Below, one piece after another: positions 1,292 through 35,186 of a stretch of DNA of 64,000 nt. The notes under the pieces are model-generated. The model was not told the DNA's origin. It did not search any database and worked only from the letters and a program-made list of their open reading frames with translations. Within the stretch, counting starts at the first letter, position 1, and each line of letters begins with the position of its first letter. Source of the stretch: a virus (taxonomy: Duplodnaviria; Heunggongvirae; Uroviricota; Caudoviricetes); the IMG/VR virus record IMGVR_UViG_3300030029_000205. One strand, given 5' to 3'. Both the position numbers and the translations under genes were made by a program.

Positions 1292-1540
1292 GTGAGTTAT
1301 AAATGTAGTAAATGCCGTAATGATAGGCTAAAGAAGCTGTATAATGAGACCAAAACTTGCTATGGTTGTGGTGTTTATTATGATAAAAGAAAAGGTAGAT
1401 TAGTAAGATGCTATATATCTAAAAGAGGTGCCAAAAGGTATTATAAACATACTTCTAATAGAATGATTAGAAGAAAGAGAGCAATGGGTAATAACGGTTA
1501 TTTTAAAAAAGTTTATGATGTATGGTGGAATTTATATTAA
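1292..1540 (+). CDS. small basic zinc-ribbon-like protein (CxxC...CxxC)
   Basis: ORF 1250-1540. Best start is GTG 1292, 7 nt after GAGGTG. CSKC...CYGC cysteine pairs and K/R-rich sequence. Followed by a terminator. Start is uncertain. Confidence 0.45.
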   Translation: MSYKCSKCRNDRLKKLYNETKTCYGCGVYYDKRKGRLVRCYISKRGAKRYYKHTSNRMIRRKRAMGNNGYFKKVYDVWWNLY

Positions 1541-1545
1541 AGAGA

Positions 1546-1577
1546 CAGGTTAGGTTAATTACCTAACCTGTTTTTTT
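1546..1577 (+). terminator. intrinsic terminator (AGGTTAGGT-taatt-ACCTAACCT + T7)
   Basis: 9-bp GC-containing stem followed by TTTTTTT. Near-identical to the terminator at 6628. Confidence 0.7.
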
Positions 1578-1608
1578 AGGAATACATTATAAAATTTTTA
1601 GGAATACA

Positions 1609-1637
1609 TTGTAAAAATTTATGAAGTATGTTAAAAT
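1609..1637 (+). promoter_or_regulatory. promoter TTGTAA-N17-TAAAAT (with duplicated AGGAATACATT upstream)
   Basis: Hexamers and spacing. Located immediately after the terminator at 1546-1577. Confidence 0.55.
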
Positions 1638-1667
1638 AAAAATACAAAATTAGAAAGGGTGATTTAT

Positions 1668-2024
1668 ATGAGTATAACTCGTGTAGGCGAAAAATCAAAA
1701 GCAAATAATGGTATGGAGATGAAGATTATAGGGTATCGTAGTAGTTCGGATATTGATGTCCAGTTCGAAGACGGTACTATAGTTAAGGGTAAGAGATACC
1801 AGCAGTTTAAAAGAGGTGAAATTGCAAACCCTAATGTAAAGAAGAAAACCTTAAGAGCAGACAGATTGGGTAATGAAGTAACTGCAAAAAACGGTCAGAA
1901 AATGAAAATTGTTGCTTACCGTAGTGCATACGATGTTGATGTGCAGTTTGAAGATGGCACAAAGGTTAATAATCGTTCTTATGCAAACTTTGAAAAAGGC
2001 AGCATAAGAAATCCAAATAAGTAA
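1668..2024 (+). CDS. DIDVQFEDG-repeat protein (2 repeats)
   Basis: ATG 1668, 7 nt after AAAGGGTG. Two ~50-aa repeats of NGMxMKIIxYRSxxDIDVQFEDGxxVxxKxYxxFxxGxIxNP. Paralog of 3721, 4820 and 7874. Confidence 0.75.
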   Translation: MSITRVGEKSKANNGMEMKIIGYRSSSDIDVQFEDGTIVKGKRYQQFKRGEIANPNVKKKTLRADRLGNEVTAKNGQKMKIVAYRSAYDVDVQFEDGTKVNNRSYANFEKGSIRNPNK

Positions 2025-2047
2025 GGTGTTGAAAGGAAGTAAAAAGT

Positions 2048-2452
2048 ATGGCTTTGATTGATGATTTAAGAGATAAAACCTACAAAGAAGCTGTAGATCT
2101 TTTGGAGAAATACGGCAAGGGTTGTATCGTTAGACCAACAGGATTCGGAAAGACAGGTATTCTTACAAGGTTAATCAATGATTATACCGCAGGTATCAAA
2201 GGCAAAGAACCAAGGGTATTATATTTGTACCCTAATGAGCCGATTAAGAATGCAGTGTTAAATTTCTACTACAAAAGCAAGGGTATGCGGATACCTACTA
2301 CCAGAGAAATTCCAGGAGTACAGTTTATAACTTATACTAAGTTGGCAAGAATGGATAAACCTGAGGATATAGAGGGTTTTGATATTCTGTTAAGTTGTTT
2401 ATGTCTGATGAATGTCATAAACTTGGAGGTACAAAGATTTCCAATAATATGA
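2048..2452 (+). CDS. SF2 helicase, N-terminal segment (Walker A TGFGKTG), ends just after start of motif II
   Basis: RPTGFGKTGI P-loop. Terminates ...EGFDILLSCLCLMNV. The -1 frame continues with SDECHKLGG. Confidence 0.7.
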   Translation: MALIDDLRDKTYKEAVDLLEKYGKGCIVRPTGFGKTGILTRLINDYTAGIKGKEPRVLYLYPNEPIKNAVLNFYYKSKGMRIPTTREIPGVQFITYTKLARMDKPEDIEGFDILLSCLCLMNVINLEVQRFPII

Positions 2453-3708
2453 ACAAGTTCAGGAATAAATATAAAGATGTAAAGTATGTAGGAGCTACAG
2501 CTACTCCAGATAGAATGGATTTATTTGATGAAGTATATGAGTTTTTTGATGATAAGGTTGTATCTTCTTATACTCTACACGATGCTTTTGTAGATGGGGT
2601 ATTGCAGAGACCATATTACTGCTTTTGCTCTTATAGTCTTGAAGATGACTCTAAGTATCTCGAGAAAAGGGTAAAAGAAGAGTTTAAGTATGTAGAGGGT
2701 AACTGCGTAAGTGAATATAGAGAACTTATGGAAGCTACTGCAATTCAGATGGCAGAACTGCATAATATGCCTAAAATTATTAGAGATGTATGTTCTAAGT
2801 GTATTGAGCCAGATTCTTATATGAGAGGGGTAGTTTTCTTTGCAGACTATAACCATATTAATGCAAAAGAGAAGGTTGTGGTAAATTGGTTCAAAGAAGC
2901 TTTTCCTGATTACAGGGTAAATGTTATAAGAGTAACTGGTCAGAACAGGAAAACAAGAGAAAATGCTCAAATACTTGATTATCTTGTACCTAAAGATAAA
3001 ACTATTGACATTATTACCAGTGTAGATATGCTGAATATGGGGTATCATGTAGATAACCTTAAGTTTGTAGGAATGTACAGAGGTACTCAGTCAGGGGTAG
3101 TATATGCTCAGCAGTTAGGTAGAATTCTGAATTCGGGTAGTATGGAGCAAGGGGTAGTTTTCGATTGGGTAGATAATATCCATAGGGAATCTATGTATGA
3201 TGTTCTTGGTAGAGAAAGTAAAAAGGTTACTAAGGCTAAAGAGAAGTATGCTGAGCTAAAAGGAAAGTTGTCAGAAGCTAAGGGTAATGTAAAAGTTTTT
3301 TCTCCTGAAGAGCTTAAAGAGTACAAAATATTAGAGGGTAGATTTGAAAGACCCAATAAAGATTGGTGGGACGATAGTCCTAATAAATTGTTACCTGAGG
3401 ATTTGATTGCCACTTCTCACGAGGCTACTTACAGAGAGTTAATAGCTAAGACAGTAGCTGAACCTATTGCAATGCGTGCAAGACAGGCTTGGAAGAATTG
3501 GTTAGATGCAGGTGGTGATATAGCAGACGGAACAGCTCAGGGTATTCTTGATAATGCTTTGCTACCTAATTTGCCTTTAGGACCTTATTGTGCAAGTAAA
3601 AGACTTACTATTGAAAAGGTGTTAAGCATTATTCTCGGTGAAGGAGATTATACAGGTATGGTAAAGAATTACACAGAGAAGTGTAAAAAGCAGGGTATAG
3701 TTTGGTAA
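2395..3708 (+). CDS. SF2 helicase, C-terminal segment (DECH box, TATP motif III, QQLGRILN motif VI)
   Basis: Frame is open from 2383 (stop TGA at 2380). MSDECH, VGATATPDR and AQQLGRILNSG motifs. No convincing RBS of its own, so it is probably joined to 2048-2452 by a frameshift or sequencing indel. Confidence 0.7.
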   Translation: MFMSDECHKLGGTKISNNMNKFRNKYKDVKYVGATATPDRMDLFDEVYEFFDDKVVSSYTLHDAFVDGVLQRPYYCFCSYSLEDDSKYLEKRVKEEFKYVEGNCVSEYRELMEATAIQMAELHNMPKIIRDVCSKCIEPDSYMRGVVFFADYNHINAKEKVVVNWFKEAFPDYRVNVIRVTGQNRKTRENAQILDYLVPKDKTIDIITSVDMLNMGYHVDNLKFVGMYRGTQSGVVYAQQLGRILNSGSMEQGVVFDWVDNIHRESMYDVLGRESKKVTKAKEKYAELKGKLSEAKGNVKVFSPEELKEYKILEGRFERPNKDWWDDSPNKLLPEDLIATSHEATYRELIAKTVAEPIAMRARQAWKNWLDAGGDIADGTAQGILDNALLPNLPLGPYCASKRLTIEKVLSIILGEGDYTGMVKNYTEKCKKQGIVW

Positions 3709-3720
3709 GGATGTGAAAAA

Positions 3721-4803
3721 ATGAGTGTTTTAAGGGACGATAGAGTGGGAGAAGTACGAAGGGCGAATAACGGTATGCTAATGAAAATATTAGCATACCG
3801 TTCCGTAAAAGATATTGATGTACAGTTTGAAGATGGTGTAATTGTATGCAATAAAAGATATAGTGCCTTTGACAAGGGTAATATAGGTCATCCTAAAGTT
3901 AAACTTTCTAAGGTATCTGACGAAGATATTAAAAGATATTTGGGTATGGAGAAAGTTATGAGTTGTGGTATGAAGGCAAAAATCATAGCTTATCGAAATA
4001 CTTTGGATATAGATATACAGTTTGAAGATGGTACTGTGGTTGAACATAAAACAATACACTCTTTTAAAACAGGTTATATTAAGAATCCTAACATAGCTAA
4101 TTATATGTCTAAGACAGGTAGGGTGGGCGATAGGGCAATAGCTAACAATGGTATGGGTATGACTATTATTAAATACATAAGTCGAGATAATATGACAGTA
4201 AGATTTGATGATGGTTTTATTAAAGAGGGTGTAAGTTATTCAAACTTTATTAATGGTAGAGTGGCTCATGATGGTATGTCAACGATGAATAAAATCTATT
4301 CTTCAAAGCATCTGCATGAGAGGAATAAGATGTTAAATGGTTTATGGGCAGAGATTATAGCTTATCGTTCTACAAAAGATATAGATGTGAGATTTGATAA
4401 CGGTGTAGTAGTTAAGAATAGGTCTTATAACAGATTTAATAAAGGTTTGATAGCCTTGCCTTTAAATAGGTTAGGTCAAGTAATTGTAACATCTTGCGGT
4501 TTAAAGGCAGAGATAGTAGGGTATCGTTCAGTTGATGATTTGGATATATTGTATGAAGATGGGTGTAAAAGAGAGCATACCTCAATAAGAATATTTAATA
4601 GTGGTAATCATCCTTTGTTTGTAACCTCAGGTAGGGGTTTACATATAAGAAAAGGGCATTCGTTTTGTGGCTTTACTAATTTGTTGAAGTCTTTTGAGTA
4701 CAATGGTGACAGCTATTTTATGTGTAAAGATGCTGATGGTAAAGGTCAGGTGCGTTCTCTCCATGATATGATGAAAGAAGCTGGGGTACATTCTAAATTT
4801 TAA
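3721..4803 (+). CDS. DIDVQFEDG-repeat protein (about 5 repeats) with conserved C-terminal FEYNG...CKDxxGKGQV domain
   Basis: Repeats RVGEVRRANNGMLMKILAYRSVKDIDVQFEDG... C-terminal tail is shared with the 4820-6016 protein. Confidence 0.8.
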   Translation: MSVLRDDRVGEVRRANNGMLMKILAYRSVKDIDVQFEDGVIVCNKRYSAFDKGNIGHPKVKLSKVSDEDIKRYLGMEKVMSCGMKAKIIAYRNTLDIDIQFEDGTVVEHKTIHSFKTGYIKNPNIANYMSKTGRVGDRAIANNGMGMTIIKYISRDNMTVRFDDGFIKEGVSYSNFINGRVAHDGMSTMNKIYSSKHLHERNKMLNGLWAEIIAYRSTKDIDVRFDNGVVVKNRSYNRFNKGLIALPLNRLGQVIVTSCGLKAEIVGYRSVDDLDILYEDGCKREHTSIRIFNSGNHPLFVTSGRGLHIRKGHSFCGFTNLLKSFEYNGDSYFMCKDADGKGQVRSLHDMMKEAGVHSKF

Positions 4804-4819
4804 AAAGGGGTTGAGAGTT

Positions 4820-6016
4820 ATGAAAATAGACAGAGTAGGTGAAGTAAATAAAGCCAATAACGGTATGTTAATGAAGATAGTAGCCTATCGTTCATATGAC
4901 AGTATAGATGTTCAGTTTGAGAATGGTATTGTAGTTAATAATAAATCCTACGGTGATTTTAAAAAAGGGAAAATAAATTTGCCTAAGGCTTTAGAGAGGG
5001 TAGGTGAAGTGAATAAAGCTAAAAATGGTATGTTAATGAAGATAATAGAATATAGAAATGCCAAGGATATAGATGTCCAATTTGAAGATGGTGTAGTAGT
5101 TAAGAGTAAGTCCTATAAGGATTTTAAAGGAGGGTGCATACCTCACCCAAAATTTTCAACAAAGGTGTGTAAAAATAGAGTGGGGGAAGTCCGAAGATCT
5201 AATAATGGTATGTTGATGAAAATAATAGCCTATCGAAGTGCTAATGATATAGATGTTCAGTTTGAAGATGGTAAAGTAGTTAAAAATAAAAGTTATGGTA
5301 ATTTTAAAGCAGGTTATATATCTTGTTCTCAAACATTACCAAAGGATAGGGTAGGTGAGGTTAATAAAGCTACAAACGGGATGATGATGAGGATAATAGA
5401 TTATAGAAGTGCTAATGATATAGATGTTCAGTTTGAAGATGGTAAAGTAGTTAAAAATAGTAGTTATGGTAATTTTAAAACGGGGCATATATCTCCTTAT
5501 CGTCAAACTTTAATAAAGGGAAGAGTAGGTGAAGTTAATAAAGCCACAAATGGAATGTCGATGAAAATATTAGCTTATAGAAATACGGATGATATAGATG
5601 TTCAGTTTGAAGATGGTATGGTAGCAAGAAATAAAACATACTATAATTTTTTATCGGGAAAAATAGGTCATCCTCTTGGAAATACAGTAAAGAGAGTAGG
5701 TGATGTTAAAGTTGCAAATAATGGTTTGCGTATGAGGGTAATTTCTCATGAAACTGATAAGAATACAGATGTGCAATTTGAGGATGGAATTATAGTTACT
5801 AATAAAAGCTACCATAGTTTTACAAAAGGTCAAATAGCTCACCCAATGATAAGTAAATGGGGTACAAGTAAGAGTTTTTATGGTTTTACTGATATAAAAA
5901 AGTCTTTCGAATATAATGGTATGGTGTACTACTTGTGTAAGGACTTGCAAGGTAAGGGGCAGGTGTACACTCTACAGCAAATGATGGAATTAGCAGGTGT
6001 AGAACCTGTATTTTAA
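4820..6016 (+). CDS. DIDVQFEDG-repeat protein (7 repeats) with the same C-terminal domain
   Basis: ATG 4820 after AAAGGGG. Seven ~57-aa RVGEVNKAxNGMLMKIIxYRSxxDIDVQFEDGxVVxNKSYxxFKxGxI repeats. Directly tandem to its paralog. Confidence 0.8.
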   Translation: MKIDRVGEVNKANNGMLMKIVAYRSYDSIDVQFENGIVVNNKSYGDFKKGKINLPKALERVGEVNKAKNGMLMKIIEYRNAKDIDVQFEDGVVVKSKSYKDFKGGCIPHPKFSTKVCKNRVGEVRRSNNGMLMKIIAYRSANDIDVQFEDGKVVKNKSYGNFKAGYISCSQTLPKDRVGEVNKATNGMMMRIIDYRSANDIDVQFEDGKVVKNSSYGNFKTGHISPYRQTLIKGRVGEVNKATNGMSMKILAYRNTDDIDVQFEDGMVARNKTYYNFLSGKIGHPLGNTVKRVGDVKVANNGLRMRVISHETDKNTDVQFEDGIIVTNKSYHSFTKGQIAHPMISKWGTSKSFYGFTDIKKSFEYNGMVYYLCKDLQGKGQVYTLQQMMELAGVEPVF

Positions 6017-6075
6017 AAGTTAATGATTTATGGTAGAATTTGTATTAATTTTTTAAAAAAAGTTTTATGAAATTC

Positions 6076-6104
6076 TTGCAATTTATGTAGAGGTGTGGTA
6101 AAAT
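6076..6104 (+). promoter_or_regulatory. promoter TTGCAA-N17(…GTGTGG)-TAAAAT with TGn extended -10
   Basis: Hexamers and spacing. A TTGCAATTTATG motif recurs at 6676. Confidence 0.55.
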
Positions 6105-6137
6105 ATAGTTTAGATTTTAAATTTAGGAGATGATATA

Positions 6138-6635
6138 GTGCCAAGATTGTATTTAGGTGTTGAAGATATAAGAGCTTTGTTGACAGCTTACAATAAGTTA
6201 AATGATAGAGCATTGTCTTGTATTGGATTACCAGTTAAAGAGATTTATTACCAGTTAGGTTGTAAAAGGTATGAAGAGAGTGAATATGTTGCTGATATGA
6301 GTAACATTAAGTTAGGTTTTGATATGGGTGACGGTCATATTTCACTTGCTAATTTTTATGACTACGGTAATAAGTGTGTAAGGTTTGCTACTCATTACAG
6401 TAAAGATTTAAAAGAACATATGACTCATAGAAAGGGTATTTTAAAAGAGAGATACAGAAGGATGTATATGAATGCAATGAGTAGTGAGGTAGTTGAACTA
6501 TCTAAGGTTATCAAGGGTATTTGTAAAAAATATGATATTACTCCAGTAGGTTTAACTTTTCTGTTTGAAAAGTTAGAACCTTATGGGTTAGAGAGTATAC
6601 AGTATAATCAAGGTGTGTTCAGAGTAGCAGGTTAG
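6138..6635 (+). CDS. hypothetical protein
   Basis: GTG start after AGGAGATGA. Promoter TTGCAA-N17-TAAAAT at 6076-6104. Stop codon lies inside the terminator stem. Confidence 0.65.
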   Translation: MPRLYLGVEDIRALLTAYNKLNDRALSCIGLPVKEIYYQLGCKRYEESEYVADMSNIKLGFDMGDGHISLANFYDYGNKCVRFATHYSKDLKEHMTHRKGILKERYRRMYMNAMSSEVVELSKVIKGICKKYDITPVGLTFLFEKLEPYGLESIQYNQGVFRVAG

Positions 6636-6661
6636 GTTTAATTACCTAACCTGTTTTTTTA
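6628..6661 (+). terminator. intrinsic terminator (CAGGTTAGGTttaattACCTAACCTG + T7)
   Basis: Same hairpin sequence as 1546-1577. The stop codon of gene 6138 lies within the stem. Confidence 0.7.
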
Positions 6662-6829
6662 TGAATTACTTGCTTTGCAATTTATGAATATATTCTAAAA
6701 TTTAAAGATTTATGTTAAAATTATTATATAGTATAGAAAAGGTAATATTATGTGTATTTTTCATGTAGGTAAAAATTTAGGGTTAATCAGGGATTAAACC
6801 CCTATTTTAATAGAGAAAGGTGATATATT

Positions 6830-7783
6830 ATGAAAGTTAAAAGATTGTTAACAAAGTTAGGTGTCATTGCTATTTGTTTAGTGATGGGTGCGTGTTCTGT
6901 TGTAGGTAGTAGTGCAGCCGAGGCAGGTAGCGAGGTTTCAAGTGTTGGCTCAGGGTATAGTGAGGGTACAGGTAGGAGAGACCTTACTTTAGAGACAACA
7001 GGTCAAAGGTTATCTTGCAAGAAAGGGTATAGATTCGAATTAACTAATGTAAAAGTAGTTAGAAATTTTACAATGCCTCAAATTAAGTTAGGCAAGGGTG
7101 AAACTTTTAAGTTTTACTTGTATAATACCTATATTAAAGATGTAGTAGGTTGTCCTGCTATGATAGGTATATATAAACCTACAGCAGTGGTAAAGAAGAA
7201 AGGCTTTGGGTACGATTATGTTTGGACTGGTGAATATAATAGAAGTAGTGTAATAACAGGTCTTTCTAATAAAACCAGAGTTGCTCCAACAGATGGGTAT
7301 GCCACGGACAGATATACAGTATCAATAAAAGGTAGTAGTAATTGTAAGTATAGACTTGTTGCTTTTGATAATTATGTAAATTATGGGGCATATGGTAAAC
7401 CTCAAGAGGCTACATTTTGGGGGTACAAGATTACTAATGCCAATACTTTATATAATCAATACCCTGTTGTAGCTGTAAGTGTTTATAATGCTCCAAAATC
7501 AGTTACGCTTAAAAGAAGTGATAATAAATCTTCCATAGCAGGTAAAACAATTACTCTCAAGAGAGGTAAAACCTTGAATGTGTATGAGAGCACACCATCA
7601 GGTACATATGCAAATGCAAAGAATGTCACTTATACTTCTTCAAATAAAGGGGTAGCTAAGGTTACCAAGGACGGTACATTCAAAAGTTCAGCAAAGATAA
7701 AAGCCATAAAGAAAGGCACAGCGACTATAACAGTAAGATTGTATAACGGTAAGACATCTTCTGTAAAAATAAGAGTAGTATAA
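6830..7783 (+). CDS. secreted/lipoprotein with C-terminal bacterial Ig-like (Big_2-type) domain
   Basis: Signal peptide MKVKRLLTKLGVIAICLVMGAC with Cys. C-terminal ...KGTATITVRLYNGKTSSVKIRVV, typical of Big_2. Confidence 0.75.
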   Translation: MKVKRLLTKLGVIAICLVMGACSVVGSSAAEAGSEVSSVGSGYSEGTGRRDLTLETTGQRLSCKKGYRFELTNVKVVRNFTMPQIKLGKGETFKFYLYNTYIKDVVGCPAMIGIYKPTAVVKKKGFGYDYVWTGEYNRSSVITGLSNKTRVAPTDGYATDRYTVSIKGSSNCKYRLVAFDNYVNYGAYGKPQEATFWGYKITNANTLYNQYPVVAVSVYNAPKSVTLKRSDNKSSIAGKTITLKRGKTLNVYESTPSGTYANAKNVTYTSSNKGVAKVTKDGTFKSSAKIKAIKKGTATITVRLYNGKTSSVKIRVV

Positions 7784-7873
7784 GATTGTTTTAATTACCC
7801 TATGTAAGTATTTCCTGTTTTATTGAAGCAGGAAATACTTAAGGGTATTTACTCTAAATAGTGAGGTGGTAGA

Positions 7874-8383
7874 GTGTCAGTTGTAGAAGAAGTATCAAAG
7901 TCAAAACAGGGGTATAAAATGACTGTAATTAGCGGTTCAAAAGATGGTTTGGTATCAGTTAGGTTTGATGATGGTACTATTGTTAGAAACAAGCCGTACA
8001 AAGATTTTTTGGAAGGTAATATAGAAAAGCCTTTATGTAAAAAGATAGGTGAGGTGTCATATTCAAATAGCGGTGAAAAAATGGAGATTGTTTGTTATAC
8101 AAATAATGAAAATATAGCTGTAAAGTTTGAAGATGGAACAGTAGTCTATGGAAGAACATACAATGCTTTCAAAAGAGGTGAAATCAAGAAGCCAAGAATA
8201 GAAAAGTATGGTAGAAACAATAAACATAATGAAAGAATAGGTATAGAATCCATAAACTTAAATGGTTTAAAAATTAAAATAGTTGAGTACCGTAATAGTA
8301 ATGATATTGATGTAAAGACCGAGGACGGTAGGGTATTAAAACATCAGACTTTTAAAAAGTTTAAAGACGGTAAAATATATTAA
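7874..8383 (+). CDS. DIDVQFEDG-repeat protein (3 diverged repeats)
   Basis: GTG start after GAGGTGG. Repeats GEKMEIVCYTNNENIAVKFEDGTVVYGRTYNAFKRGEIKKP. Confidence 0.75.
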   Translation: MSVVEEVSKSKQGYKMTVISGSKDGLVSVRFDDGTIVRNKPYKDFLEGNIEKPLCKKIGEVSYSNSGEKMEIVCYTNNENIAVKFEDGTVVYGRTYNAFKRGEIKKPRIEKYGRNNKHNERIGIESINLNGLKIKIVEYRNSNDIDVKTEDGRVLKHQTFKKFKDGKIY

Positions 8384-11188: not shown

Positions 11189-14100
11189 ATGAAAGAGAAG
11201 GTAATCTCTTTAAGGGTAGGTAAATTGGCTGAGGGAAAGAAATCCTTATTACCTAATGTATTCTCAGCTTTATGTGGAAATAAGGCAGGTAAGATGAAAT
11301 ATGTGGGTATAGAGGGTATAAACCTTAGAGGTTTTGAGAAGAAACTCTTAGGTGCAGATACTGATTTATATTTAGATACTCTGATAGATGCTATATCCAT
11401 TGTAGAAAATATGGGTATTAAAGATGCTGATTGTGCTTTATGTAGTAATGATAGCTTTAAAGTGGCGAAACTTTTTGGGGTACATTTAGCAACAAATCTG
11501 ACTTCTGATGAGATTATTTCTAAATGGGCATCTGAAGAGATGGTAGATGACTTTGATGTATATAAAGAAGGTAATGATTCAGATACAGATTGGGATGAAG
11601 TTGACGAAGATTATAGTGATGCTGATGATATCTATGATGACGAAGAAGAGGATATGGGTGAAGAAGAGGTATATGAGGATTCAGATGAACCTGAGGTAAA
11701 TGATGATGAGGCTGTTCTTAGGGAAGAGATAAAGAAAGTATTTAATTCTACTGTTATATCTCTTGTTTCTAAGGTAAAGAAGAGATATGATTTACTTTTT
11801 GAATCTGGGTATGACCTTGAAAGACCTTATTGTATTATAAGCGATAAGGGTAGTTTATTTGTAGATAGCGATAATGTATTAAAGATGCGTGAAAACCCCT
11901 CAAAGGATATAGATTTTAGTGCTATCTTAAATATATATGAGTTATTTGAAGGTAAGATTGGTTTTAACTTGAGTGATGCCAGGTCATCCAAGGTAATTGC
12001 TCAGGATTTATTAGAGGGGTATTTAAATGGAGGTAAGTTAGATTACTTCCCCTATAAGTTGTTGGAGTATGCTTATGGTAGAAATCCCTCAAGAGAAGAG
12101 AGTACACAATACAGTTATGCTACTTATAAAGGTCAAGGAGTAAGTACCAATTGGGGCAAGTTCGGTGATAAAGTAGTTGAAGATATTAGATTGACTGTTG
12201 AAGATGCAATTACTTCTTATTGTCTTGATGTACTTAAAACAGGTACTGAGAGAGAAAATATTAGAAGTATAATTAGAGATTCTCAGACTATTAAAAATAT
12301 TCAAAATTATATTGAATATGTAGCTGATAGTTTAAGTGTTTGTATCATTGTAACAGAATATAAAAGTATAGATGGAAAGCCAGTAATGCTGAAAATGAGG
12401 GTATGTGACCCAAGAGGCAAAGTTACTAACGGTATGACTGGTGAAATTATCAATACTGCTTTTTCGGGTAATACAGGAGGTTCCTCAGGTGCTACTTTAA
12501 ACAGTGGTTTAAACGAGTCAGATAGTATGACTTATAGGGTATTTGAGTTTGGTCACGAGTTTAATCACTCTTTAAGTAATGCTATGCCATTATTTGCTTA
12601 TAAGGCTTTTGAAAAGTTAAGAGAGAAAGGTGAAAATGTTTCCTTTAAGGACTTGATTCTTGGTCAGAGTACAGATGGAACTATACTTAGAAATGGCACT
12701 CACGGCTTAGTTTTGGATAAAAAATTATTCCATTATATTAATGCAGGTAGTAGAAGTGGTAAGGGTGTTATGACTCTAAATATGATTGCAGGAGCCCTGT
12801 TAAGCGGTAAGGCTGTAATATACTTAGATAATAAGCCTGATATGGTATCTATGTTAGCTAAGTTATGTGGTGGAGAAGAAGGAGGAAATTATAGTGGACC
12901 TCCTTTCTTTGGTATTAACGGTTCTAATAATGTAGATGACAAGCAGAAACAGTTTACGCACGAAGATGCTTGGATTAGTAGAGACAATATTCCGATAGAG
13001 GCAGTAGCTTTATTTGGAGAACCTACTTGGAGCAAGTATGGTGAAATTTTTTATATGAGAGCCTATACTTTAGCGATGGGTATTATCCTTGCTCGAGGTC
13101 TTGATGGTGGTCACGGTAAGATGAATGACCCAGCATATGGTGGTAAAGAGGGTATCTTCTTAGTTTGTGATGAAACTAATGTGTTACAAGAGAAATTCAA
13201 GGTAATTGGTCAAATTATTGCTGATAAGATACCTTTACAGGCTAAGAAGTTTAAGTCTATGTCAGCGAGTTTAGAGTCTGTATATAATGAGGCTTATTCT
13301 GAAAATGCAAGAAAGGGTGCAGAGTTAAAGTTTTTCAATGCTAAGCGTGATTTTGAAGAAGCTTTCAATGCTCATAAGTTTTATGCATTAGCATACTTGA
13401 ATACTTTATCTGACAACATTGCTTACATATATGATAAAAGCCTTGCAGGATTTTTACAGAAGGAGATGGAATGTTCTGATATTGTAATTATAGGTCAGAA
13501 TTTAGAGCAGAAACCGATATCTAAAGATACTATTACTTCCGCTGTATCAAGTGGTAGATTATCGGGTGAAGGTTCAGGAGCTAACGGCTTAGGAGGTACT
13601 CAGATAGCAAAGGATGTAAAAGGTATGGCATCGATTCCTTTTGCTCACTTTGTGTTTAGTAGTTCTGATGCTTTAATAGGGTATAATTCTTTACATCCAG
13701 AATACCTTGCTCAAACTGAGCAGAATTCAAAGGCTTTTGGAAGACTTGATTTGGTAGCTAATAACTTTTGTTATATTCCTAATTTTAAGGTTAGTGCCAG
13801 TGAAGATGATGTGCCAGGAGCTCAGTTAACTAAGAATGTAGCTAATGCAAGTACAAGCGTGTATTTCAAGCCTTATCTTATTCTCAATGATGCATCTAAG
13901 GCTTATACAGACCAGATGTTTGATAGAGTAAGAAATGCAGGGTTAACTCCAGAAGATGTTGTGTATGAGTATCCTAATGCCGATGGTAGTGATATTAGTC
14001 CGTATGTAGGATTTCCAGAGTACATGAGCTTAATGGGGGTATCAGATATACCTGAGAGATTACAAAAAGGTGCTAACATAGCTAATATGGTAGTAAGAGA

Positions 14101-15583
14101 TGTATTAGGGTATCAAGACGATGGTAGCGGAAGACCTTTATGGTTACAGTTTGTAACTGATATGCGACCTGAATGGATGCTCTCTGTTAGAGATATAGCT
14201 TGTATGTGTGGTGGTTTGACTTCTGACGCTAATATGACTAAAGGCAGAGATAATCCTATTACTAAAGAGTATTATGAATATATAGATTATGTTAATAAGC
14301 ATAAAGAGCTTAACATAGATGATACTACTATGTCAAGTGAAGGAGCCTATTTTGAAGATGAGAATGGTGAAAGACAGTATGATATAAGTGGGTATGAGAG
14401 TGATGCTCGCAGAGATTTCTATGCTACTGATGATGGTAGCGATGAGGAGTTTGAAGAAGAGTCTTTTCAAGATAGAATGGCTCATAGTCTTGGTGATGAT
14501 GAGACTATAGATGACTTTGAGGAAATTGATTTGTTTGATGATTCAGATAATTTCGATGAACCAGGAGCTGAAAATATTGGAGCTTTCGATGATTTTGAGG
14601 ATGCTAATGCTGTTGGTGACACATATGGTAATCCTGTTTTAGATGAGAAAGATGCTTTAATAGCAACTCTCATTGATAGATTACAGCAGAATGGTATAGA
14701 TGTATCGGATTTGGATGGGTATTCAATACCAGAGACAGGTAAAGGTGTAGATTGTGGGTATGATTGCCCTGATTATAAAGAAGAATTCTCAAGTCAAGAT
14801 ATAGGAAATATGGATTTCAGTAGTGAGGATGATGAAATAACTGCTACAACATATGCTAATCTTGTAAAACTGGTAACCAATAAGGTAATTGGTAATTTCG
14901 GTGGTTATGATAGAATAAACACCTTTAGGGTAATTGGTGGAGCTATTGCGATTAACGGTACTATTTTTAGAAGTAAGGTAAGTAAAGACTGTTTAGGTTT
15001 ACTTCCTCTTGATATAAGAAGACAGATTTCTGCAGGAAATCTGGCAGATCTGTTTAACTATAGAGAGTTGTTTAATATGCCGAATTTGAGGGGTTTAGAT
15101 TTTGATTCTGAGAGTTTTGTATATAATAGGGTATCGCCTTTACTTGGTTTTATTGATACAATTGGGGTAGATAACTATTTTGAGGCATTTAGTTCTTTAC
15201 AGATACTCAAAATTGGAAACAGGAAGTTTACAAGACAGAATTACAAAATGGAAATTGGTGATGAAGATATCTTCAGTTATCAGAGTAAAGCTACAAAATA
15301 TGCAAGGATGTGTGACAACAACTTGTCTAATCTTACTTCTAAATCTTGGAGTTTTACTAAAAATATGTTCAATAGTAAGAACCACGGCTTAGTAGCTAAA
15401 ACTTTTGGGGTAATATTTGGTACTACAGCATCGTTAGCAACAGGTGCAGCATCTTTAGGAGCTAAAGCTGCAAAGGGTATATCCCATCAGGTAGATAGAC
15501 ACAATCAGCGTAAAACCTTTACTGAGAAAGCTAAAGATGGTTTTTCTGCTTTTAAGGGTGGTTTTAAAGATTTGTTTAATTGA
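11189..15583 (+). CDS. giant 1464-aa protein with acidic low-complexity tracts and a possible deviant P-loop NTPase core
   Basis: RBS AAGGAG. Acidic tracts DEEEDMGEEEVYEDSDEPEVNDDEA, plus C-terminal DE-rich and Gly/Ala-rich tails. INAGSRSGKGVMT (GKG instead of GKS/T) and GIFLVCDETNVL (hhhhDE). Confidence 0.8.
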   Translation: MKEKVISLRVGKLAEGKKSLLPNVFSALCGNKAGKMKYVGIEGINLRGFEKKLLGADTDLYLDTLIDAISIVENMGIKDADCALCSNDSFKVAKLFGVHLATNLTSDEIISKWASEEMVDDFDVYKEGNDSDTDWDEVDEDYSDADDIYDDEEEDMGEEEVYEDSDEPEVNDDEAVLREEIKKVFNSTVISLVSKVKKRYDLLFESGYDLERPYCIISDKGSLFVDSDNVLKMRENPSKDIDFSAILNIYELFEGKIGFNLSDARSSKVIAQDLLEGYLNGGKLDYFPYKLLEYAYGRNPSREESTQYSYATYKGQGVSTNWGKFGDKVVEDIRLTVEDAITSYCLDVLKTGTERENIRSIIRDSQTIKNIQNYIEYVADSLSVCIIVTEYKSIDGKPVMLKMRVCDPRGKVTNGMTGEIINTAFSGNTGGSSGATLNSGLNESDSMTYRVFEFGHEFNHSLSNAMPLFAYKAFEKLREKGENVSFKDLILGQSTDGTILRNGTHGLVLDKKLFHYINAGSRSGKGVMTLNMIAGALLSGKAVIYLDNKPDMVSMLAKLCGGEEGGNYSGPPFFGINGSNNVDDKQKQFTHEDAWISRDNIPIEAVALFGEPTWSKYGEIFYMRAYTLAMGIILARGLDGGHGKMNDPAYGGKEGIFLVCDETNVLQEKFKVIGQIIADKIPLQAKKFKSMSASLESVYNEAYSENARKGAELKFFNAKRDFEEAFNAHKFYALAYLNTLSDNIAYIYDKSLAGFLQKEMECSDIVIIGQNLEQKPISKDTITSAVSSGRLSGEGSGANGLGGTQIAKDVKGMASIPFAHFVFSSSDALIGYNSLHPEYLAQTEQNSKAFGRLDLVANNFCYIPNFKVSASEDDVPGAQLTKNVANASTSVYFKPYLILNDASKAYTDQMFDRVRNAGLTPEDVVYEYPNADGSDISPYVGFPEYMSLMGVSDIPERLQKGANIANMVVRDVLGYQDDGSGRPLWLQFVTDMRPEWMLSVRDIACMCGGLTSDANMTKGRDNPITKEYYEYIDYVNKHKELNIDDTTMSSEGAYFEDENGERQYDISGYESDARRDFYATDDGSDEEFEEESFQDRMAHSLGDDETIDDFEEIDLFDDSDNFDEPGAENIGAFDDFEDANAVGDTYGNPVLDEKDALIATLIDRLQQNGIDVSDLDGYSIPETGKGVDCGYDCPDYKEEFSSQDIGNMDFSSEDDEITATTYANLVKLVTNKVIGNFGGYDRINTFRVIGGAIAINGTIFRSKVSKDCLGLLPLDIRRQISAGNLADLFNYRELFNMPNLRGLDFDSESFVYNRVSPLLGFIDTIGVDNYFEAFSSLQILKIGNRKFTRQNYKMEIGDEDIFSYQSKATKYARMCDNNLSNLTSKSWSFTKNMFNSKNHGLVAKTFGVIFGTTASLATGAASLGAKAAKGISHQVDRHNQRKTFTEKAKDGFSAFKGGFKDLFN

Positions 15584-24508: not shown

Positions 24509-24716
24509 TTTACATATTTTATATGTTGTTTTCTCACCTCCAAGATTTTATAGGGTTTTGTGGGGAAGATTAAATTCTTCCCTACAAAATAATAAAATTA
24601 TTTTAAGAAAGCATTTAAGTTTTGTTAGGTATATGTTAAAATGTAAATACAATATTCAAGTTATTGTATTTACATTTTAGTATATAGAATATTTTAAAAA
24701 TGTTTTAAGAATGACT

Positions 24717-24745
24717 TGTAGCTATACTTGAAATATGGTAAAATA
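24717..24745 (+). promoter_or_regulatory. promoter TTGTAG-N17(…TGG)-TAAAAT, copy 1 of tandem duplicated promoter
   Basis: Lies inside the first 115-bp repeat unit. Confidence 0.55.
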
Positions 24746-24830
24746 TGTATATACTTAGAAAGATACAATATTTAAACTATTGTATTGCATTTCAGTATAT
24801 GAGATATTTTAAAAATGTTTTAAGAATGAC

Positions 24831-24859
24831 TTGTAGTTAGTTTTAAAATATGGTAAAAT
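24831..24859 (+). promoter_or_regulatory. promoter TTGTAG-N17(…TGG)-TAAAAT, copy 2 of tandem duplicated promoter
   Basis: Lies inside the second repeat unit, about 40 nt upstream of the ORF-free RNA region. Confidence 0.55.
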
Positions 24860-24899
24860 ATGTATATACTTAGAACCTTGACAATTATAAATATTATAA

Positions 24900-25640
24900 G
24901 TGGCAGTAATACCTCAGTGAAGAGCGACTAATCATCGTGCTGAGAATATACTGAATGGAGTAACGGTATGTTGGGATACTTACATACTAAGACTTTACTA
25001 TACATCGAGAGGTGTAAGGTAGGAGTTTCAAAGCGAAACAACCAAGGGTATATGTGCTGTAAGTAATTTTTTCATAAGGTACTTTTAAGATGACGTAGAC
25101 ATAATAGACAGCCCAGTGGGTGTTGAATCAAGGTAGCTGACAAGTGTGAGAGCTTGGGTAGCGATGTGAAAACTCAAATAAGTCTAAATTTTGCAGTTGA
25201 AGCTCAGAAATGAGTGTATAAGTCATTGATAAAGGTATGAGTAGCCCAAATCTGCAAAGAACTGTAAAAGAAAAAAGGTTTAGTTAACCTAAGAACAATT
25301 TCTGAATGATGGGTGAAAATGAAGGGTATCAATCCCTTGTACTCAGTGTACCCTAAAGGGTAGGTGTAAGAAGTTTATATGTGACGATGTATAGGCTCAG
25401 ACTTACATCAGTACTGACTGATTAATGAACTGATTATATTATGGTATGCTGAATAAAAGGCAATTGCTGTTACTTATAATATTTATAATGGAGAGGGTAA
25501 TTCCAATGGGCAATCTAAGGGTGAGTTTTTGATAGTCTTATCTCGCCCCAGAAAGACTATCCGAATTGATTTCTAATACCTGTAATATAGCTATTAGAAT
25601 AGTTCGTTTTGTAAGCTCGGCTTATCCATAAGTCGAGCAG
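24900..25640 (+). ncRNA. candidate large structured non-coding RNA (ORF-free ~740 nt between tandem promoters and the tRNA array)
   Basis: No ORF of 60 aa or more on either strand from 24680 to 26028. Numerous local hairpins, e.g. a 10-bp stem at 25612-25636 and AAGGGTATCAATCCCTT. Lies directly downstream of duplicated strong promoters and upstream of tRNAs. Confidence 0.3.
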
Positions 25641-26517: not shown

Positions 26518-26591
26518 GTAGATGTAGTTTAATGGTAAAATGTCAGTTTCCCATACTGAGGTTGTGGGTTCGATTCCCATCATCTGCTCCA
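26518..26591 (+). tRNA. tRNA-Gly (anticodon CCC), CCA encoded
   Basis: Acceptor GTAGATG/CATCTGC (one G-U). D-arm GTTTAATGGTAAAAT. Anticodon stem TCAGT/ACTGA with loop TTCCCAT. T-arm GTGGGTTCGATTCCCAT. Discriminator T plus CCA. Confidence 0.6.
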
Positions 26592-27078: not shown

Positions 27079-27152
27079 TGCAGAAAGTAGTTTAATGGTA
27101 GAATACCCGCCTAAGAGGAGGAAGATGCAGGTTCGACTCCTGTGTTCTGCAG
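27079..27152 (+). tRNA. tRNA-like gene, type and anticodon unresolved
   Basis: Acceptor TGCAGAA/TTCTGCA, 7 bp perfect. D-arm TAGTTTAATGGTAGAAT. T-arm GCAGGTTCGACTCCTGT. Anticodon stem pairs poorly in every register. Loop region contains CCTAAGAGG. Confidence 0.45.
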
Positions 27153-34524: not shown

Positions 34525-34538
34525 ATAGGAGGTTGTGT

Positions 34539-35186
34539 ATGCGTAGAACAAGTATAATGTTAGAGTTCTCAGATGATATTTATGATTCTTTAGTAGAGCC
34601 TTTAAAAAAGAATAGAACATTTTCTAAATTAGTAGTATCTTTAATCAATGGGTACATAGAGGACGGGTATATTCATGCATATGTAGATGATACTTTAAGT
34701 AATCTTAAAAAGGCAGCTGTTGACTCTTTTAATAGTTCTATTGATTCTATGTCAGAGTCTTTAAGCAATATGGGATTGTTTACAGATGAACTAAATTCCG
34801 TATCTTCAAGTGCAAAAACTAAGTTTACTGAGAAGTATAACGAAGCATCAAAAGGGGTAAAGCCTGAAAGTAGAGTTGATAGCAAGGGTGATATTGATAA
34901 AATCAACAAGCGTATTGATGATATGCAAGAGGATGTTAATGCCAAGTTAAGCACTCTTATTGATTTAATTAGTTCTTTGTCAACGGGTGGTGTTCCTGTT
35001 AAGAAAAATGTGGAAAATGTTATTCCAGATGTTTCCAATGTTAAGAGAGATGTGGAAAATGTTATTCCAGATGTTTCCAATGTTAAGAGAGATGTGGAAA
35101 ATGTGGAAACCACTGATACCGAAGAGGAAAAAGAGGCTCTTGATTTTATGTCTAACCTGTTAAATGGTAACTCTTTTGAATTTTAA
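34539..35186 (+). CDS. coiled-coil protein with perfect 14-aa tandem repeats (VENVIPDVSNVKRD x2.3)
   Basis: ATG 34539, 7 nt after AGGAGG. DNA tandem repeat 35010-35105. Confidence 0.7.
   Translation: MRRTSIMLEFSDDIYDSLVEPLKKNRTFSKLVVSLINGYIEDGYIHAYVDDTLSNLKKAAVDSFNSSIDSMSESLSNMGLFTDELNSVSSSAKTKFTEKYNEASKGVKPESRVDSKGDIDKINKRIDDMQEDVNAKLSTLIDLISSLSTGGVPVKKNVENVIPDVSNVKRDVENVIPDVSNVKRDVENVETTDTEEEKEALDFMSNLLNGNSFEF
35010..35105 (+). repeat. in-frame 42-bp tandem repeat (2.3 copies) within CDS 34539-35186
   Basis: GTGGAAAATGTTATTCCAGATGTTTCCAATGTTAAGAGAGAT repeated exactly. Confidence 0.85.

What the first reader, a model, noticed from the sequence alone, without database searches (positions are those of the whole stretch)
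1659..8383. Tandem expansion of a novel ~55-aa repeat ('NGMxMKIIxYRSxxDIDVQFEDGxVVxNKSYxxFKxGxI') across four paralogous genes
Four genes (1668-2024, 3721-4803, 4820-6016, 7874-8383) carry 2, ~5, 7 and 3 copies of the same highly conserved repeat. The two largest also share a C-terminal FEYNG..Y..CKD..GKGQV..L..MME.AGV domain and sit directly in tandem. I do not recognise the repeat as any named domain. It lacks Cys/His ligands and looks like a small beta-rich module. A family whose copy number varies by whole repeats, clustered beside the replication helicase, could be a modular nucleic-acid- or protein-binding array. Its variability would suit involvement in host-range or anti-defence arms races.
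Basis: seen in the sequence. Interest (0 to 1): 0.65.

Follow-up and report, generated by a model that had tools for sequence, protein, structure and literature searches.

The report
Nuclease-free arrays of homing-endonuclease DNA-binding modules
Four neighbouring phage genes are built from 16 copies of a small beta-barrel module that elsewhere guides DNA-cutting "homing" enzymes, but here no cutting domain is present, so they most likely bind DNA without cutting it.

Summary
The repeat is real. A profile finds 16 copies, all inside the four genes: A has 2, B has 5, C has 6 (not 7) and D has 3. AlphaFold2 (pLDDT 93) gives each copy an SH3-like small barrel resembling KOW and Tudor domains.

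It is not entirely unnamed. Protein C passes the Pfam cut-offs of Phage_T4_Gp30_7, DUF6763 and DUF5780, though only by partial matches.

Relatives show what it is used for. About a third of the best homologues carry a Vsr/DUF559-like nuclease inside or beside the array. Bacillus phage HNH/AP2 proteins start with one copy. The zinc-binding repeats of Campylobacter phage Hef homing endonucleases align in register (hhalign 85%). One viral protein mixes it with DUF4379 zinc fingers and a Vsr nuclease.

The window proteins have no nuclease, are basic, and are under purifying selection. B and C end in a about 49-residue cap that is found almost only after such arrays and never together with the nuclease.

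Best reading: these are nuclease-free DNA-binding arrays, apparently in one operon with an SF2 helicase. No evidence for a host-range, virion or anti-defence role was found. This is a new variant of a known kind, of moderate interest.

The parts
1538..1658 (+). Terminator-like hairpin (1538-1578) followed by a promoter-like site (TTGTAA-17-TAAAAT with TG, 1609-1637). It probably marks the start of a transcription unit A-helicase-B-C.
   Evidence: (I10, D8, D19, D15). The same cassette recurs at 6626-6742. These are consensus matches only.
1659..2024 (+). Gene A, 121 aa (118 aa from the ATG at 1668), pI 9.9. It has two SH3-like repeats (1683-1832, 1866-2015) and no other domain.
   Evidence: AF2 model pLDDT 93.2. 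82% identical to its counterpart in L087 over 119 aligned codons, dN/dS 0.23.
2048..3708 (+). SF2 helicase gene (ResIII/DEAD/SWI2_SNF2 plus Helicase_C). In this window it is split into two frames (2048-2452, 2395-3708) by a 2-nt insertion at about 2382-2383. It lies in the same apparent transcription unit as A, B and C.
   Evidence: It is intact (552 aa) in the 95% identical locus L003. Helicase homologues of 37-38% identity also abut array-plus-cap genes in L088 and L014.
3721..4803 (+). Gene B, 360 aa, pI 9.4. It has five repeats (3745-3894, 3940-4089, 4123-4272, 4312-4461, 4471-4614) and a C-terminal cap domain (4654-4800).
   Evidence: 91% identical to its L087 counterpart, dN/dS 0.16.
4811..6016 (+). 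Gene C, 401 aa from TTG 4811 (398 aa from ATG 4820), pI 9.5. It has six repeats (4835-4984, 5000-5149, 5180-5329, 5351-5500, 5525-5674, 5696-5845) and a C-terminal cap domain (5867-6013).
   Evidence: Pfam PF06919 at 52.4 bits. AF2 of residues 290-401: pLDDT 92.6, pTM 0.84. Only 54-58% identical to its L087 counterpart, which has 5 repeats; dN/dS 0.30.
7874..8383 (+). Gene D, 169 aa, pI 9.4. It has three more divergent repeats (7883-8032, 8045-8194, 8237-8383) and no cap.
   Evidence: 59% identical to its L087 counterpart, dN/dS 0.21.

Best explanation
Genes A-D encode basic proteins made almost entirely of a ~50-residue, zinc-free, SH3-like beta-barrel module.

In related proteins this module is the DNA-targeting part of homing-endonuclease-like enzymes. 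These include Hef/EDxHD (Vsr-like) nucleases and HNH-like/AP2 proteins.

The window proteins keep the arrays but have no nuclease. B and C carry instead a ~49-residue cap, a zinc-finger-like domain that has lost its ligands here.

The most likely mechanism is that each module contacts a short stretch of double-stranded DNA through its variable surface: strand 1, the exposed side of strands 2 and 4, and the short helix. An array of 2-6 modules would then read a long site and occupy it without cutting. A, B and C appear to be transcribed together with an SF2 helicase. A plausible role is therefore to mark or protect particular sites, or to bring the helicase to them, during phage DNA metabolism.

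**Shown:** the repeats, their fold class, the domain architectures of relatives, the absence of a nuclease, purifying selection, and the linkage to the helicase.

**Inferred:** DNA binding, modular read-out, and the biological role.
For: **Module and fold.**
- 16 copies, found only in these four genes.
- AF2 pLDDT 93; each copy has four strands plus a short helix.

**Link to nucleases.**
- 38 of the 120 best homologues carry a 145-170 aa domain inside, before or after the array. It matches DUF559, MTES_1575 or DUF2726, which are Vsr-like families.
- A profile of that domain also hits Campylobacter phage Hef168.
- L017 encodes 8 repeats + nuclease + 5 repeats. L027 encodes 5 DUF4379 + nuclease + 3 DUF4379 + 1 window-type repeat.
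- The Bacillus phage pW2 'HNH endonuclease/AP2' protein begins with one copy (51.5 bits). Viral proteins with 2-4 N-terminal copies continue into the same HNH-like region; AP2 itself was confirmed only in the L019 protein with 3 copies, while the 2-copy L021 and 4-copy L064 proteins gave no Pfam AP2 hit.
- hhalign of window repeats against the Hef168 zinc repeats gives probability 84.6%, E 6.8e-6, 39 columns in register. Phe28 and Thr32 stand where Hef has Cys and His.
- Foldseek against viral models returns a Campylobacter phage homing endonuclease and DUF559, DUF2726, CapR and zinc-ribbon proteins.

**Literature.**
- Hef cuts DNA (PMC3322345) and belongs to the EDxHD/Vsr homing endonucleases (PMC3239194).
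- Tandem ~60-aa CapR/DUF4379/DUF723-like modules before an EDxHD nuclease have been proposed as DNA-binding specificity domains (PMC12350094).

**Window proteins.**
- pI 9.4-9.9 and no Vsr-like domain anywhere in the window.
- dN/dS is 0.16-0.30 against 0.06-0.15 for flanking genes.
- The scaffold residues are near-invariant while surface positions 5, 6, 12, 21, 22, 35, 38, 40, 41, 44, 46 and 48 are highly variable across 793 repeats.
- A helicase abuts array-plus-cap genes in three lineages.
Against: - No DNA-binding experiment or solved structure exists for this module.
- The SH3-like fold is a generalist that also binds proteins and RNA.
- Each repeat has a strongly conserved acidic patch (D23, D25, E29, D30). 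That is unusual for a DNA-contacting module and is unexplained.
- The match to the Hef repeats is weak in sequence (12 bits to the repeat HMM). No similarity to DUF4379 was detected.
- Array genes in other viral contigs sit beside varied genes, so the helicase link may reflect a shared insertion site rather than a shared function.
- The helicase is frameshifted in this window.
Confidence: 0.55

Rival explanations
1. The proteins are still working homing endonucleases. Cutting would be provided by the C-terminal cap of B and C, or by a separately encoded nuclease that the arrays recruit.
For: - The cap and the Vsr-like nuclease are mutually exclusive. None of 140 newly retrieved cap-bearing proteins has the nuclease. 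Nuclease-bearing homologues have 18 or fewer non-repeat residues at the C-terminus unless the nuclease itself sits there. The cap could therefore be a functional alternative.
- The same helicase family sits next to array-plus-cap genes at 37-38% helicase identity. This resembles a homing element that stays beside its target gene.
- Array genes elsewhere lie next to PD-(D/E)XK and non-specific endonuclease genes.
Against: - The cap is only ~49 residues: three strands and a helix.
- Its only invariant residue is one Cys, and there are no conserved His, Asp or Asn catalytic candidates.
- The window version has lost three of the four zinc ligands.
- No Pfam or PDB match to any nuclease.
- No Vsr-like domain anywhere in the window. 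HNH and GIY-YIG domains were not searched for window-wide.
Confidence: 0.12
2. The arrays bind protein or RNA rather than DNA. For example, they could be accessory subunits that tether the SF2 helicase to RNA polymerase or to another host machine, as KOW and Tudor domains do.
For: - Best structural matches are KOW (Spt5/NusG) and the RNA-polymerase-binding Tudor domains of UvrD/PcrA.
- There is a conserved acidic patch on every repeat.
- The genes appear to be co-transcribed with, and repeatedly adjacent to, an SF2 helicase.
Against: - The repeated fusion of the same module with three kinds of nuclease or DNA-binding partner (Vsr-like, HNH-like/AP2, DUF4379) argues for DNA targeting.
- The proteins are basic overall.
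Confidence: 0.15
3. They are decaying remnants of homing endonuclease genes that lost the nuclease and now have no function.
For: - There is no catalytic domain.
- C and D diverge much faster than their neighbours: 54-59% against 81-95% identity.
- Whole-repeat gain or loss occurs.
- The adjacent helicase is frameshifted in this window.
Against: - All four reading frames are intact in three related genomes, in the same order.
- dN/dS is 0.16-0.30.
- Scaffold residues are near-invariant across 793 repeats.
- Cap-bearing, nuclease-free arrays form 404 clusters at 50% identity.
Confidence: 0.08
4. One reading: a variable binding array involved in host range (virion-associated) or in countering host defence.
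For: - C and D evolve faster than flanking genes.
- The window also encodes an anti-restriction-like protein and a Ser/Thr kinase, so it is rich in host-takeover genes.
Against: - The only head or tail family match in PHROGs is a weak one for B (phrog_16614 'head protein', E 3.6e-4, no stretch passing on its own), and there is no PADLOC match for A-D.
- The genes lie among DNA-metabolism genes.
- Relatives are nuclease fusions, not receptor-binding proteins.
Confidence: 0.05

Closest known systems
Hef / EDxHD (Vsr-like) homing endonucleases. This includes the Hef-like proteins of Campylobacter phages and the 'CapR-like domains + EDxHD/Vsr' homing endonuclease genes described in phage group II introns (PMC3239194, PMC12350094).
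   Same: - Tandem ~50-60-aa modules of the same register. Window repeats align with the Hef168 zinc repeats (hhalign 84.6%).
- Many direct homologues of protein C carry the Vsr-like nuclease.
- Foldseek finds a Campylobacter phage homing endonuclease and DUF559 and DUF2726 proteins.
   Different: - The window proteins have no nuclease domain.
- Their modules have no zinc ligands; Phe and Thr stand in place of Cys and His.
- Arrays are longer, and B and C end in a cap domain that never co-occurs with the nuclease.
Pfam PF06919 (Phage_T4_Gp30_7), PF19092 (DUF5780), PF20549 (DUF6763)
   Same: Protein C scores above the gathering threshold of all three: 52.4, 29.1 and 30.5 bits. Many homologues carry the same precomputed marks.
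   Different: - Each match covers only the ~30-50 profile positions that correspond to one repeat: positions 3-53 of 118, 75-106 of 109, and 15-42 of 97.
- The scores come from summing repeats.
- A, B and D do not reach the thresholds.
- All three families have unknown function.
HNH-like / AP2-domain putative homing endonucleases of Bacillus phages (pW2 gp145, PBC2) and many viral contigs
   Same: The N-terminus of the pW2 protein is one clear copy of the window repeat (51.5 bits; 44% identity by tblastn). Viral contigs encode versions with 1, 2 and 3-4 copies.
   Different: Those proteins continue into a 'YGGRG..VC.EW ... LDKD..YSPETC' region; an AP2 domain was confirmed for pW2 and for the L019 protein, whereas representatives of the other viral-contig classes (L036, L021, L064, L075) gave no Pfam AP2 hit. 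The window proteins do not.
[quoted passage not shown]
   Same: It is a small module, found in variable numbers and orders next to different nuclease types.
   Different: No NUMOD family appears among the Pfam matches at E up to 1. The fold is a beta-barrel rather than a helix-turn-helix. Here the module stands without any nuclease.
SH3-like small barrels: KOW (NusG/Spt5) and Tudor (SMN, UvrD/PcrA C-terminal domain). From my own knowledge, also the DNA-binding Sso7d/Cren7 type.
   Different: There is no sequence relationship (7-20% identity). No known example forms arrays of 5-13 copies fused to nucleases.
Tandem DNA-reading arrays such as C2H2 zinc fingers and TALE repeats (analogy only, from my own knowledge)
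   Same: - A conserved scaffold with a few highly variable surface positions.
- Whole-repeat copy-number change.
- Fusion to a nuclease in relatives.
   Different: No recognition code, target or DNA contact is known. The repeats are far more divergent than TALE repeats.

Membership tests
EDxHD / Vsr-like (Hef-type) homing endonucleases | Vsr-like PD-(D/E)xK catalytic domain with the E-D-x-H-D residues | tested here: not met
   A profile of the nuclease domain from 38 array-bearing homologues gives no significant hit in any frame of the window. Pfam finds no DUF559, MTES_1575 or DUF2726 in A-D. The same profile does hit Hef168 and the array-plus-nuclease proteins.
EDxHD / Vsr-like (Hef-type) homing endonucleases | Tandem ~50-60-aa auxiliary modules (CapR/DUF4379/DUF723-like) next to the nuclease | tested here: met
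   - Window repeats against Hef168 repeats: hhalign 84.6%, E 6.8e-6, in register.
- One module-bearing viral protein hits DUF723.
- Foldseek finds CapR and zinc-ribbon viral proteins.
- No similarity to DUF4379 itself was detected.
EDxHD / Vsr-like (Hef-type) homing endonucleases | Site-specific DNA cleavage and homing (presence/absence polymorphism next to the target gene) | not testable with these tools
   All three close relatives carry all four genes. Distant helicase homologues sometimes have an adjacent array gene and sometimes do not.
Pfam PF06919 Phage_T4_Gp30_7 | Score above the gathering threshold over the family's domain (118 positions) | tested here: inconclusive
   C scores 52.4 bits against a cut-off of 27, but through four stretches that each match only positions ~3-53. 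A scores 18.2 and D 16.6, both below the cut-off. B has no hit.
Pfam PF19092 DUF5780 and PF20549 DUF6763 | Score above the gathering threshold | tested here: inconclusive
   C scores 29.1 (cut-off 28.2) and 30.5 (cut-off 27), with no single stretch passing on its own. The other three proteins are below the cut-off.
SH3-like small beta-barrel fold (KOW/Tudor class) | Four to five strands forming a small barrel, superposable on known members | tested here: met
Zinc-binding treble-clef/ribbon repeats (DUF4379, Hef-type) | Four Cys/His zinc ligands per module | tested here: not met
   Window repeats have no conserved Cys or His at the ligand columns. Phe28 is 98% conserved where Hef has Cys.
C-terminal cap family (unnamed; 'FYCxCxxCG...HxC') | A ~49-aa domain at the extreme C-terminus after an array, with C-x-C-x2-C ... 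H-x-C ligands | tested here: inconclusive
   B and C match the cap profile (46.6 and 72.7 bits) and are at the right position. They keep only the first Cys. The family has 404 clusters at 50% identity.
Known anti-phage defence or anti-defence systems (PADLOC) | Match to a defence-system protein model | tested here: not met
   No significant match for A-D or for the array proteins P0106 and P0017. The helicase matches only the generic SF2 motor regions of restriction enzymes.

The most novel reading that the evidence does not exclude
The arrays are a new kind of modular DNA reader. Each zinc-free SH3-like module would recognise a few base pairs through its hypervariable surface positions. Arrays of 2-13 modules would then spell out long targets, with or without a nuclease attached. 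This would be a natural counterpart of zinc-finger or TALE arrays. The nuclease-free, cap-bearing forms next to an SF2 helicase would be a domesticated use, for example site marking, protection from a cognate endonuclease, or helicase loading.
Probability: 0.2. Interest if true: 0.8.

Novelty: new variant of a known kind. Interest (0 to 1): 0.48.

Why it matters
Homing endonucleases are known to gain specificity from small add-on DNA-binding modules. A 2025 study noted a large, unrecognised group that combines tandem ~60-residue modules with a Vsr-type nuclease.

This locus adds three things:
- A zinc-free, SH3-like version of such a module, which folds confidently in prediction.
- Long arrays of it that have dispensed with the nuclease, are under purifying selection, and form hundreds of families in gut and rumen Firmicute phages and bacteria.
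- A recurring partnership with an SF2 helicase.

If the modules read DNA one by one, they would be a new scaffold for programmable DNA binding. The nuclease-bearing relatives would offer natural pairs of array and target from which to work out the rules. If not, the locus is still a clear case of a selfish-element DNA-binding domain put to another use.

Tried and rejected
- **Megablast against phage records.** The first 12 kb gave no match.
- **PDB sequence searches.** Protein C and the two-repeat profile gave nothing. The cap profile gave only non-significant resemblance to C2H2 zinc fingers (E 0.1-8). I treat that as a lead, not a result.
- **NCBIfam.** Only sub-threshold noise.
- **Nuclease in the window.** A Vsr-like domain scan of all six frames found none.
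- **Is the cap a divergent copy of the repeat?** hhalign found no similarity. I therefore dropped the idea, even though the strand-strand-strand-helix order is similar.
- **Is the repeat related to DUF4379?** hhalign found no similarity. The two are separate modules that co-occur.
- **Fold search of the last repeat plus cap.** It was dominated by the SH3-like part and said nothing about the cap.
- **Word-indexed protein search with the cap alignment.** It returned one 31-aa fragment and was wasted. The exhaustive representative search worked.
- **Genome scan with the alignment.** The single-protein scan gave only three loci.
- **PADLOC.** Nothing for A-D.
- **DNA iterons.** A search for DNA repeats that could be binding sites near the genes found only the coding repeats and a duplicated terminator/promoter cassette.
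- **Sandegren 2005 (Hef).** The paper is not held. Whether U5 Hef itself has the repeats was not checked.
- **Model coordinates.** They were not available, so surface mapping rests on the strand pattern only.

Full report
**1. What is in the sequence**

The window has about 32% G+C, a strong positive GC skew, and nearly all long ORFs on the + strand.
- A: 1659/1668-2024.
- B: 3721-4803.
- C: 4811/4820-6016.
- D: 7874-8383.

I built a profile from the repeats and searched all six reading frames of the whole window. It finds 16 copies, all inside these four genes, at 53-87 bits each. The copy numbers are 2, 5, 6 and 3.

Copies are 16-76% identical in protein and 36-81% in DNA. Those inside C are the most alike (DNA families). 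B and C share a ~49-residue C-terminal domain, and a profile of that domain hits nothing else in the window. All four proteins are basic, with pI 9.4-9.9.

**2. Fold**

AlphaFold2 was run on protein A with an alignment of 64 two-repeat segments from homologues. It gave mean pLDDT 93.2. Each repeat is a short helix, four strands and a short helix.

The last repeat of C plus the C-terminal domain also models well (pLDDT 92.6, pTM 0.84). The cap is three strands and a helix packed on the last repeat. The fold search of that model was dominated by the barrel and did not identify the cap. No solved structure matches either module by sequence.

**3. Is it unnamed?**

Not quite. Protein C passes the Pfam gathering scores of three families:
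- Phage_T4_Gp30_7: 52.4 bits against 27.
- DUF6763: 30.5 against 27.
- DUF5780: 29.1 against 28.2.

Each match covers only the part of the model that corresponds to one repeat, and the scores are sums over repeats. A, B and D stay below threshold. All three families have unknown function, and a literature search on them found nothing useful.

**4. Relatives and what the module is attached to**

A search with C found 607 proteins, mostly from metagenomes. A few are named as Bacilli or Lachnospiraceae MAGs. A genome scan adds Clostridium sp. CAG:307, Lachnoclostridium and a rumen Lachnospiraceae.

The best 120 proteins have 3-11 repeats. They fall into three architectures:
- Pure arrays.
- Arrays ending in the cap (about 64 proteins).
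- Arrays with a 145-170-residue extra domain placed inside, before or after the array (38 proteins).

The extra domain matches DUF559, MTES_1575 or DUF2726, which are Vsr-like PD-(D/E)xK nuclease families.

A tblastn search against annotated phages hits two groups:
- 37 Campylobacter phages, at genes annotated Hef or homing endonuclease.
- Four Bacillus phage records (pW2 and PBC2 among those listed), at 'HNH endonuclease / AP2 domain' genes.

The pW2 protein begins with one clear copy of the repeat (51.5 bits) followed by an AP2 domain.

Campylobacter Hef168 has four ~50-residue zinc-type repeats, a Vsr-like nuclease and a C-terminal region. Its repeats match my profile only weakly. A profile-profile comparison, however, aligns 39 columns in register with 84.6% probability. 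Phe28 and Thr32 of the window repeat stand where Hef has Cys and His. I read the window repeat as a zinc-free relative of the Hef repeats. This is likely but not proven.

In IMG/VR the module occurs in 77 loci. The forms are:
- About 250-residue proteins with one copy.
- About 317-residue proteins with two copies.
- 425-441-residue proteins with three or four copies, continuing into an HNH-like 'YGGRG..VC.EW ... LDKD..YSPETC' region. Pfam confirmed AP2 only in a separate 371-residue, three-copy protein (L019); the L064 and L075 representatives gave no AP2 hit.
- Arrays.
- A 928-residue protein with 8 repeats + nuclease + 5 repeats.
- A 784-residue protein with 5 DUF4379 zinc fingers + nuclease + 3 DUF4379 + 1 window-type repeat.

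Foldseek against viral models returns a Campylobacter phage homing endonuclease and DUF559, DUF2726, CapR and zinc-ribbon proteins.

**5. Literature**

- Hef ('homing endonuclease-like function', phage U5) has endonuclease activity and cuts near its own gene (PMC3322345; PMC2988022).
- Hef-type enzymes were placed in the EDxHD family, whose catalytic domain has the Vsr fold (PMC3239194).
- A 2025 paper describes homing endonuclease genes with three to five ~60-aa domains distantly related to CapR, DUF4379 and DUF723, followed by an EDxHD/Vsr domain. It proposes that these domains confer DNA specificity, as NUMODs do, and calls the group a large unrecognised outgroup (PMC12350094).

That is the closest published description. 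I found none of the zinc-free SH3-like version or of nuclease-free arrays.

**6. The window proteins lack a nuclease**

A profile of the Vsr-like domain finds nothing in any frame of the window. Pfam, PHROGs, NCBIfam and PADLOC give no catalytic domain for A-D.

I searched the cap exhaustively against 1.84 billion representative proteins. This gave 404 hits, nearly always at the extreme C-terminus. Of 140 newly retrieved proteins:
- 131 have at least one SH3-like repeat.
- None has the Vsr-like domain.

The exceptions put the cap after other repeated modules typical of homing-endonuclease-like proteins: helix-turn-helix-type repeats, 'FGKLTV..YxCxCxCGN..SCGC' units, and zinc-ribbon arrays.

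Most caps carry C-x-C-x2-C ... H-x-C. The window type keeps only the first Cys. Cap and nuclease are therefore alternatives. The cap has no conserved catalytic-type residues.

**7. Are the genes functional?**

Two relatives keep the same four genes in the same order:
- A 107 kb metagenome contig, L003, 95% identical in helicase DNA.
- A 140 kb IMG/VR contig, L010/L087.

Identity of window proteins to L087:

| Gene | Protein identity |
|---|---|
| Flanking genes | 81-95% |
| Helicase | 93% |
| B | 91% |
| A | 81% |
| C | 54-58% (one repeat fewer) |
| D | 59% |

The cap of C stays about 80% identical.

dN/dS is 0.16-0.30 for the arrays against 0.06-0.15 for the flanking genes. dS varies widely (0.29-1.47), which suggests mosaic recombination. 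The arrays therefore evolve faster but remain under purifying selection.

Across 793 repeats the scaffold is nearly invariant: G2, G10, Y18, D23, D25, F28, E29, D30, G31, Y39, F42, G45, I47 and P50. Positions 5, 6, 12, 21, 22, 35, 38, 40, 41, 44, 46 and 48 are highly variable. Judged from the strand pattern of the model, the variable positions lie on strand 1, the exposed side of strands 2 and 4, and the short helix. The conserved acidic residues lie on strand 3 and the following turn. The acidic patch is unexplained.

**8. Context**

A terminator-like hairpin and a promoter-like site precede A. A, the helicase, B and C follow head to tail, and the next promoter-like site is at about 6076.

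The helicase is an SF2 enzyme (ResIII/DEAD/SWI2_SNF2 plus Helicase_C). It is split in this window by a 2-nt insertion relative to L003.

Helicase homologues of 37-38% identity are also directly next to array-plus-cap genes in two other viral contigs. The array gene is downstream in one and upstream in the other. Two further helicase homologues have no adjacent array gene.

Array genes elsewhere sit beside DnaD-like, PD-(D/E)XK, non-specific endonuclease, C5-methyltransferase, DnaB and LPD1/DUF5688 genes. These are DNA-metabolism neighbourhoods, as is usual for free-standing homing endonuclease genes.

The rest of the window encodes another helicase, a RecJ-like exonuclease, a partition-like protein, a Ser/Thr kinase, an anti-restriction-like protein, three tRNAs and a ROOL RNA. 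This fits a large phage of gut or rumen Firmicutes.

**9. Interpretation**

The best reading is that A-D are nuclease-free arrays of a DNA-targeting module borrowed from, or shared with, Hef/EDxHD and HNH/AP2-type homing-endonuclease-like proteins. They probably bind long DNA sites without cutting, and they are expressed with an SF2 helicase.

What is shown and what is inferred:
- DNA binding itself is inferred from the fusion partners, the basic charge and the published proposal for the related modules.
- The biological role (site marking, protection from a cognate endonuclease, or helicase recruitment) is speculation.

Rivals that remain open:
- A cryptic or trans-acting nuclease.
- Protein or RNA binding.
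- Decay of former endonuclease genes. This is the least likely, given the selection data.

**10. Verdict**

This is a real feature, correctly spotted, with one miscount. It is a new variant of a known kind: modular DNA-binding arrays of homing endonucleases, here zinc-free, capped and without a nuclease. It is moderately interesting as it stands. It would be much more so if the modules prove to read DNA in a modular way.

Noticed in passing
window 24889-25481 (+): A full-length ROOL RNA (Rfam RF03087, 252 bits against a gathering score of 99, model positions 1-574). It lies in a 3 kb stretch with no ORF of 100 aa or more. Three tRNA genes follow: Leu-taa 26285-26372, Gly-ccc 26518-26591 and Leu-aag 27079-27152.
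   Followed up: partly
window 24647-24875: A 115-nt tandem duplication (2 copies, 88% matches) immediately upstream of the ROOL RNA. It could be a duplicated promoter or leader.
   Followed up: no
window 2048-3708, indel at about 2382-2383: The SF2 helicase gene is split into two overlapping frames by a 2-nt insertion (AT), relative to the 95% identical intact gene in L003 (552 aa). It could be a pseudogene, an assembly error or a programmed frameshift.
   Followed up: partly
window 1538-1658 and 6626-6742; also 794-809, 1577-1592, 1599-1614: A terminator hairpin plus promoter-like cassette occurs twice: a near-identical 29-nt core, then 62 nt at 73% identity. The motif TAGGAATACATT recurs three times upstream of genes. 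It is probably a phage-specific promoter or operator element.
   Followed up: partly
window 6138-6635 and 6830-7783; L087 6998-7504: The 165-aa gene after C has its counterpart (44% identity) upstream of A in the related contig L087. The 317-aa secreted Big_2 protein gene between C and D is absent there. The block around the arrays is therefore a rearrangement hot spot. The 165-aa protein has no family match.
   Followed up: partly
window 11189-15583 and 44871-51005: Two very large ORFs. One is 1464 aa with long acidic stretches and a GSRSGKGV Walker-A-like motif. The other is 2044 aa with a Big_13 Ig-like domain. Neither has any other family assignment.
   Followed up: partly
window 42785-44458, 52107-53165, 29447-30598, 38617-40608: Host-takeover or plasmid-like genes: a Ser/Thr kinase (phrog_2361), an anti-restriction-like protein (phrog_7245), a partition-like protein (phrog_691), and a PhoH-like/methyltransferase-like protein.
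   Followed up: no
window 34997-35104: A 42-nt tandem repeat (2.6 copies, 96% matches) inside ORF 34533-35186.
   Followed up: no
whole window: GC skew is about +0.3 throughout and nearly all long ORFs are on the + strand. There is no skew switch within 64 kb.
   Followed up: no
repeat columns 7, 9 and 13 (all array proteins): The repeats seem to come in two flavours, '..ANNGxxM..' and '..MNCGMxA..', judged from column frequencies (A51/M25, N62/C21, M61/A27) and from individual sequences. If real, this would be a compensating swap in the barrel core. Covariation was not tested.
   Followed up: no
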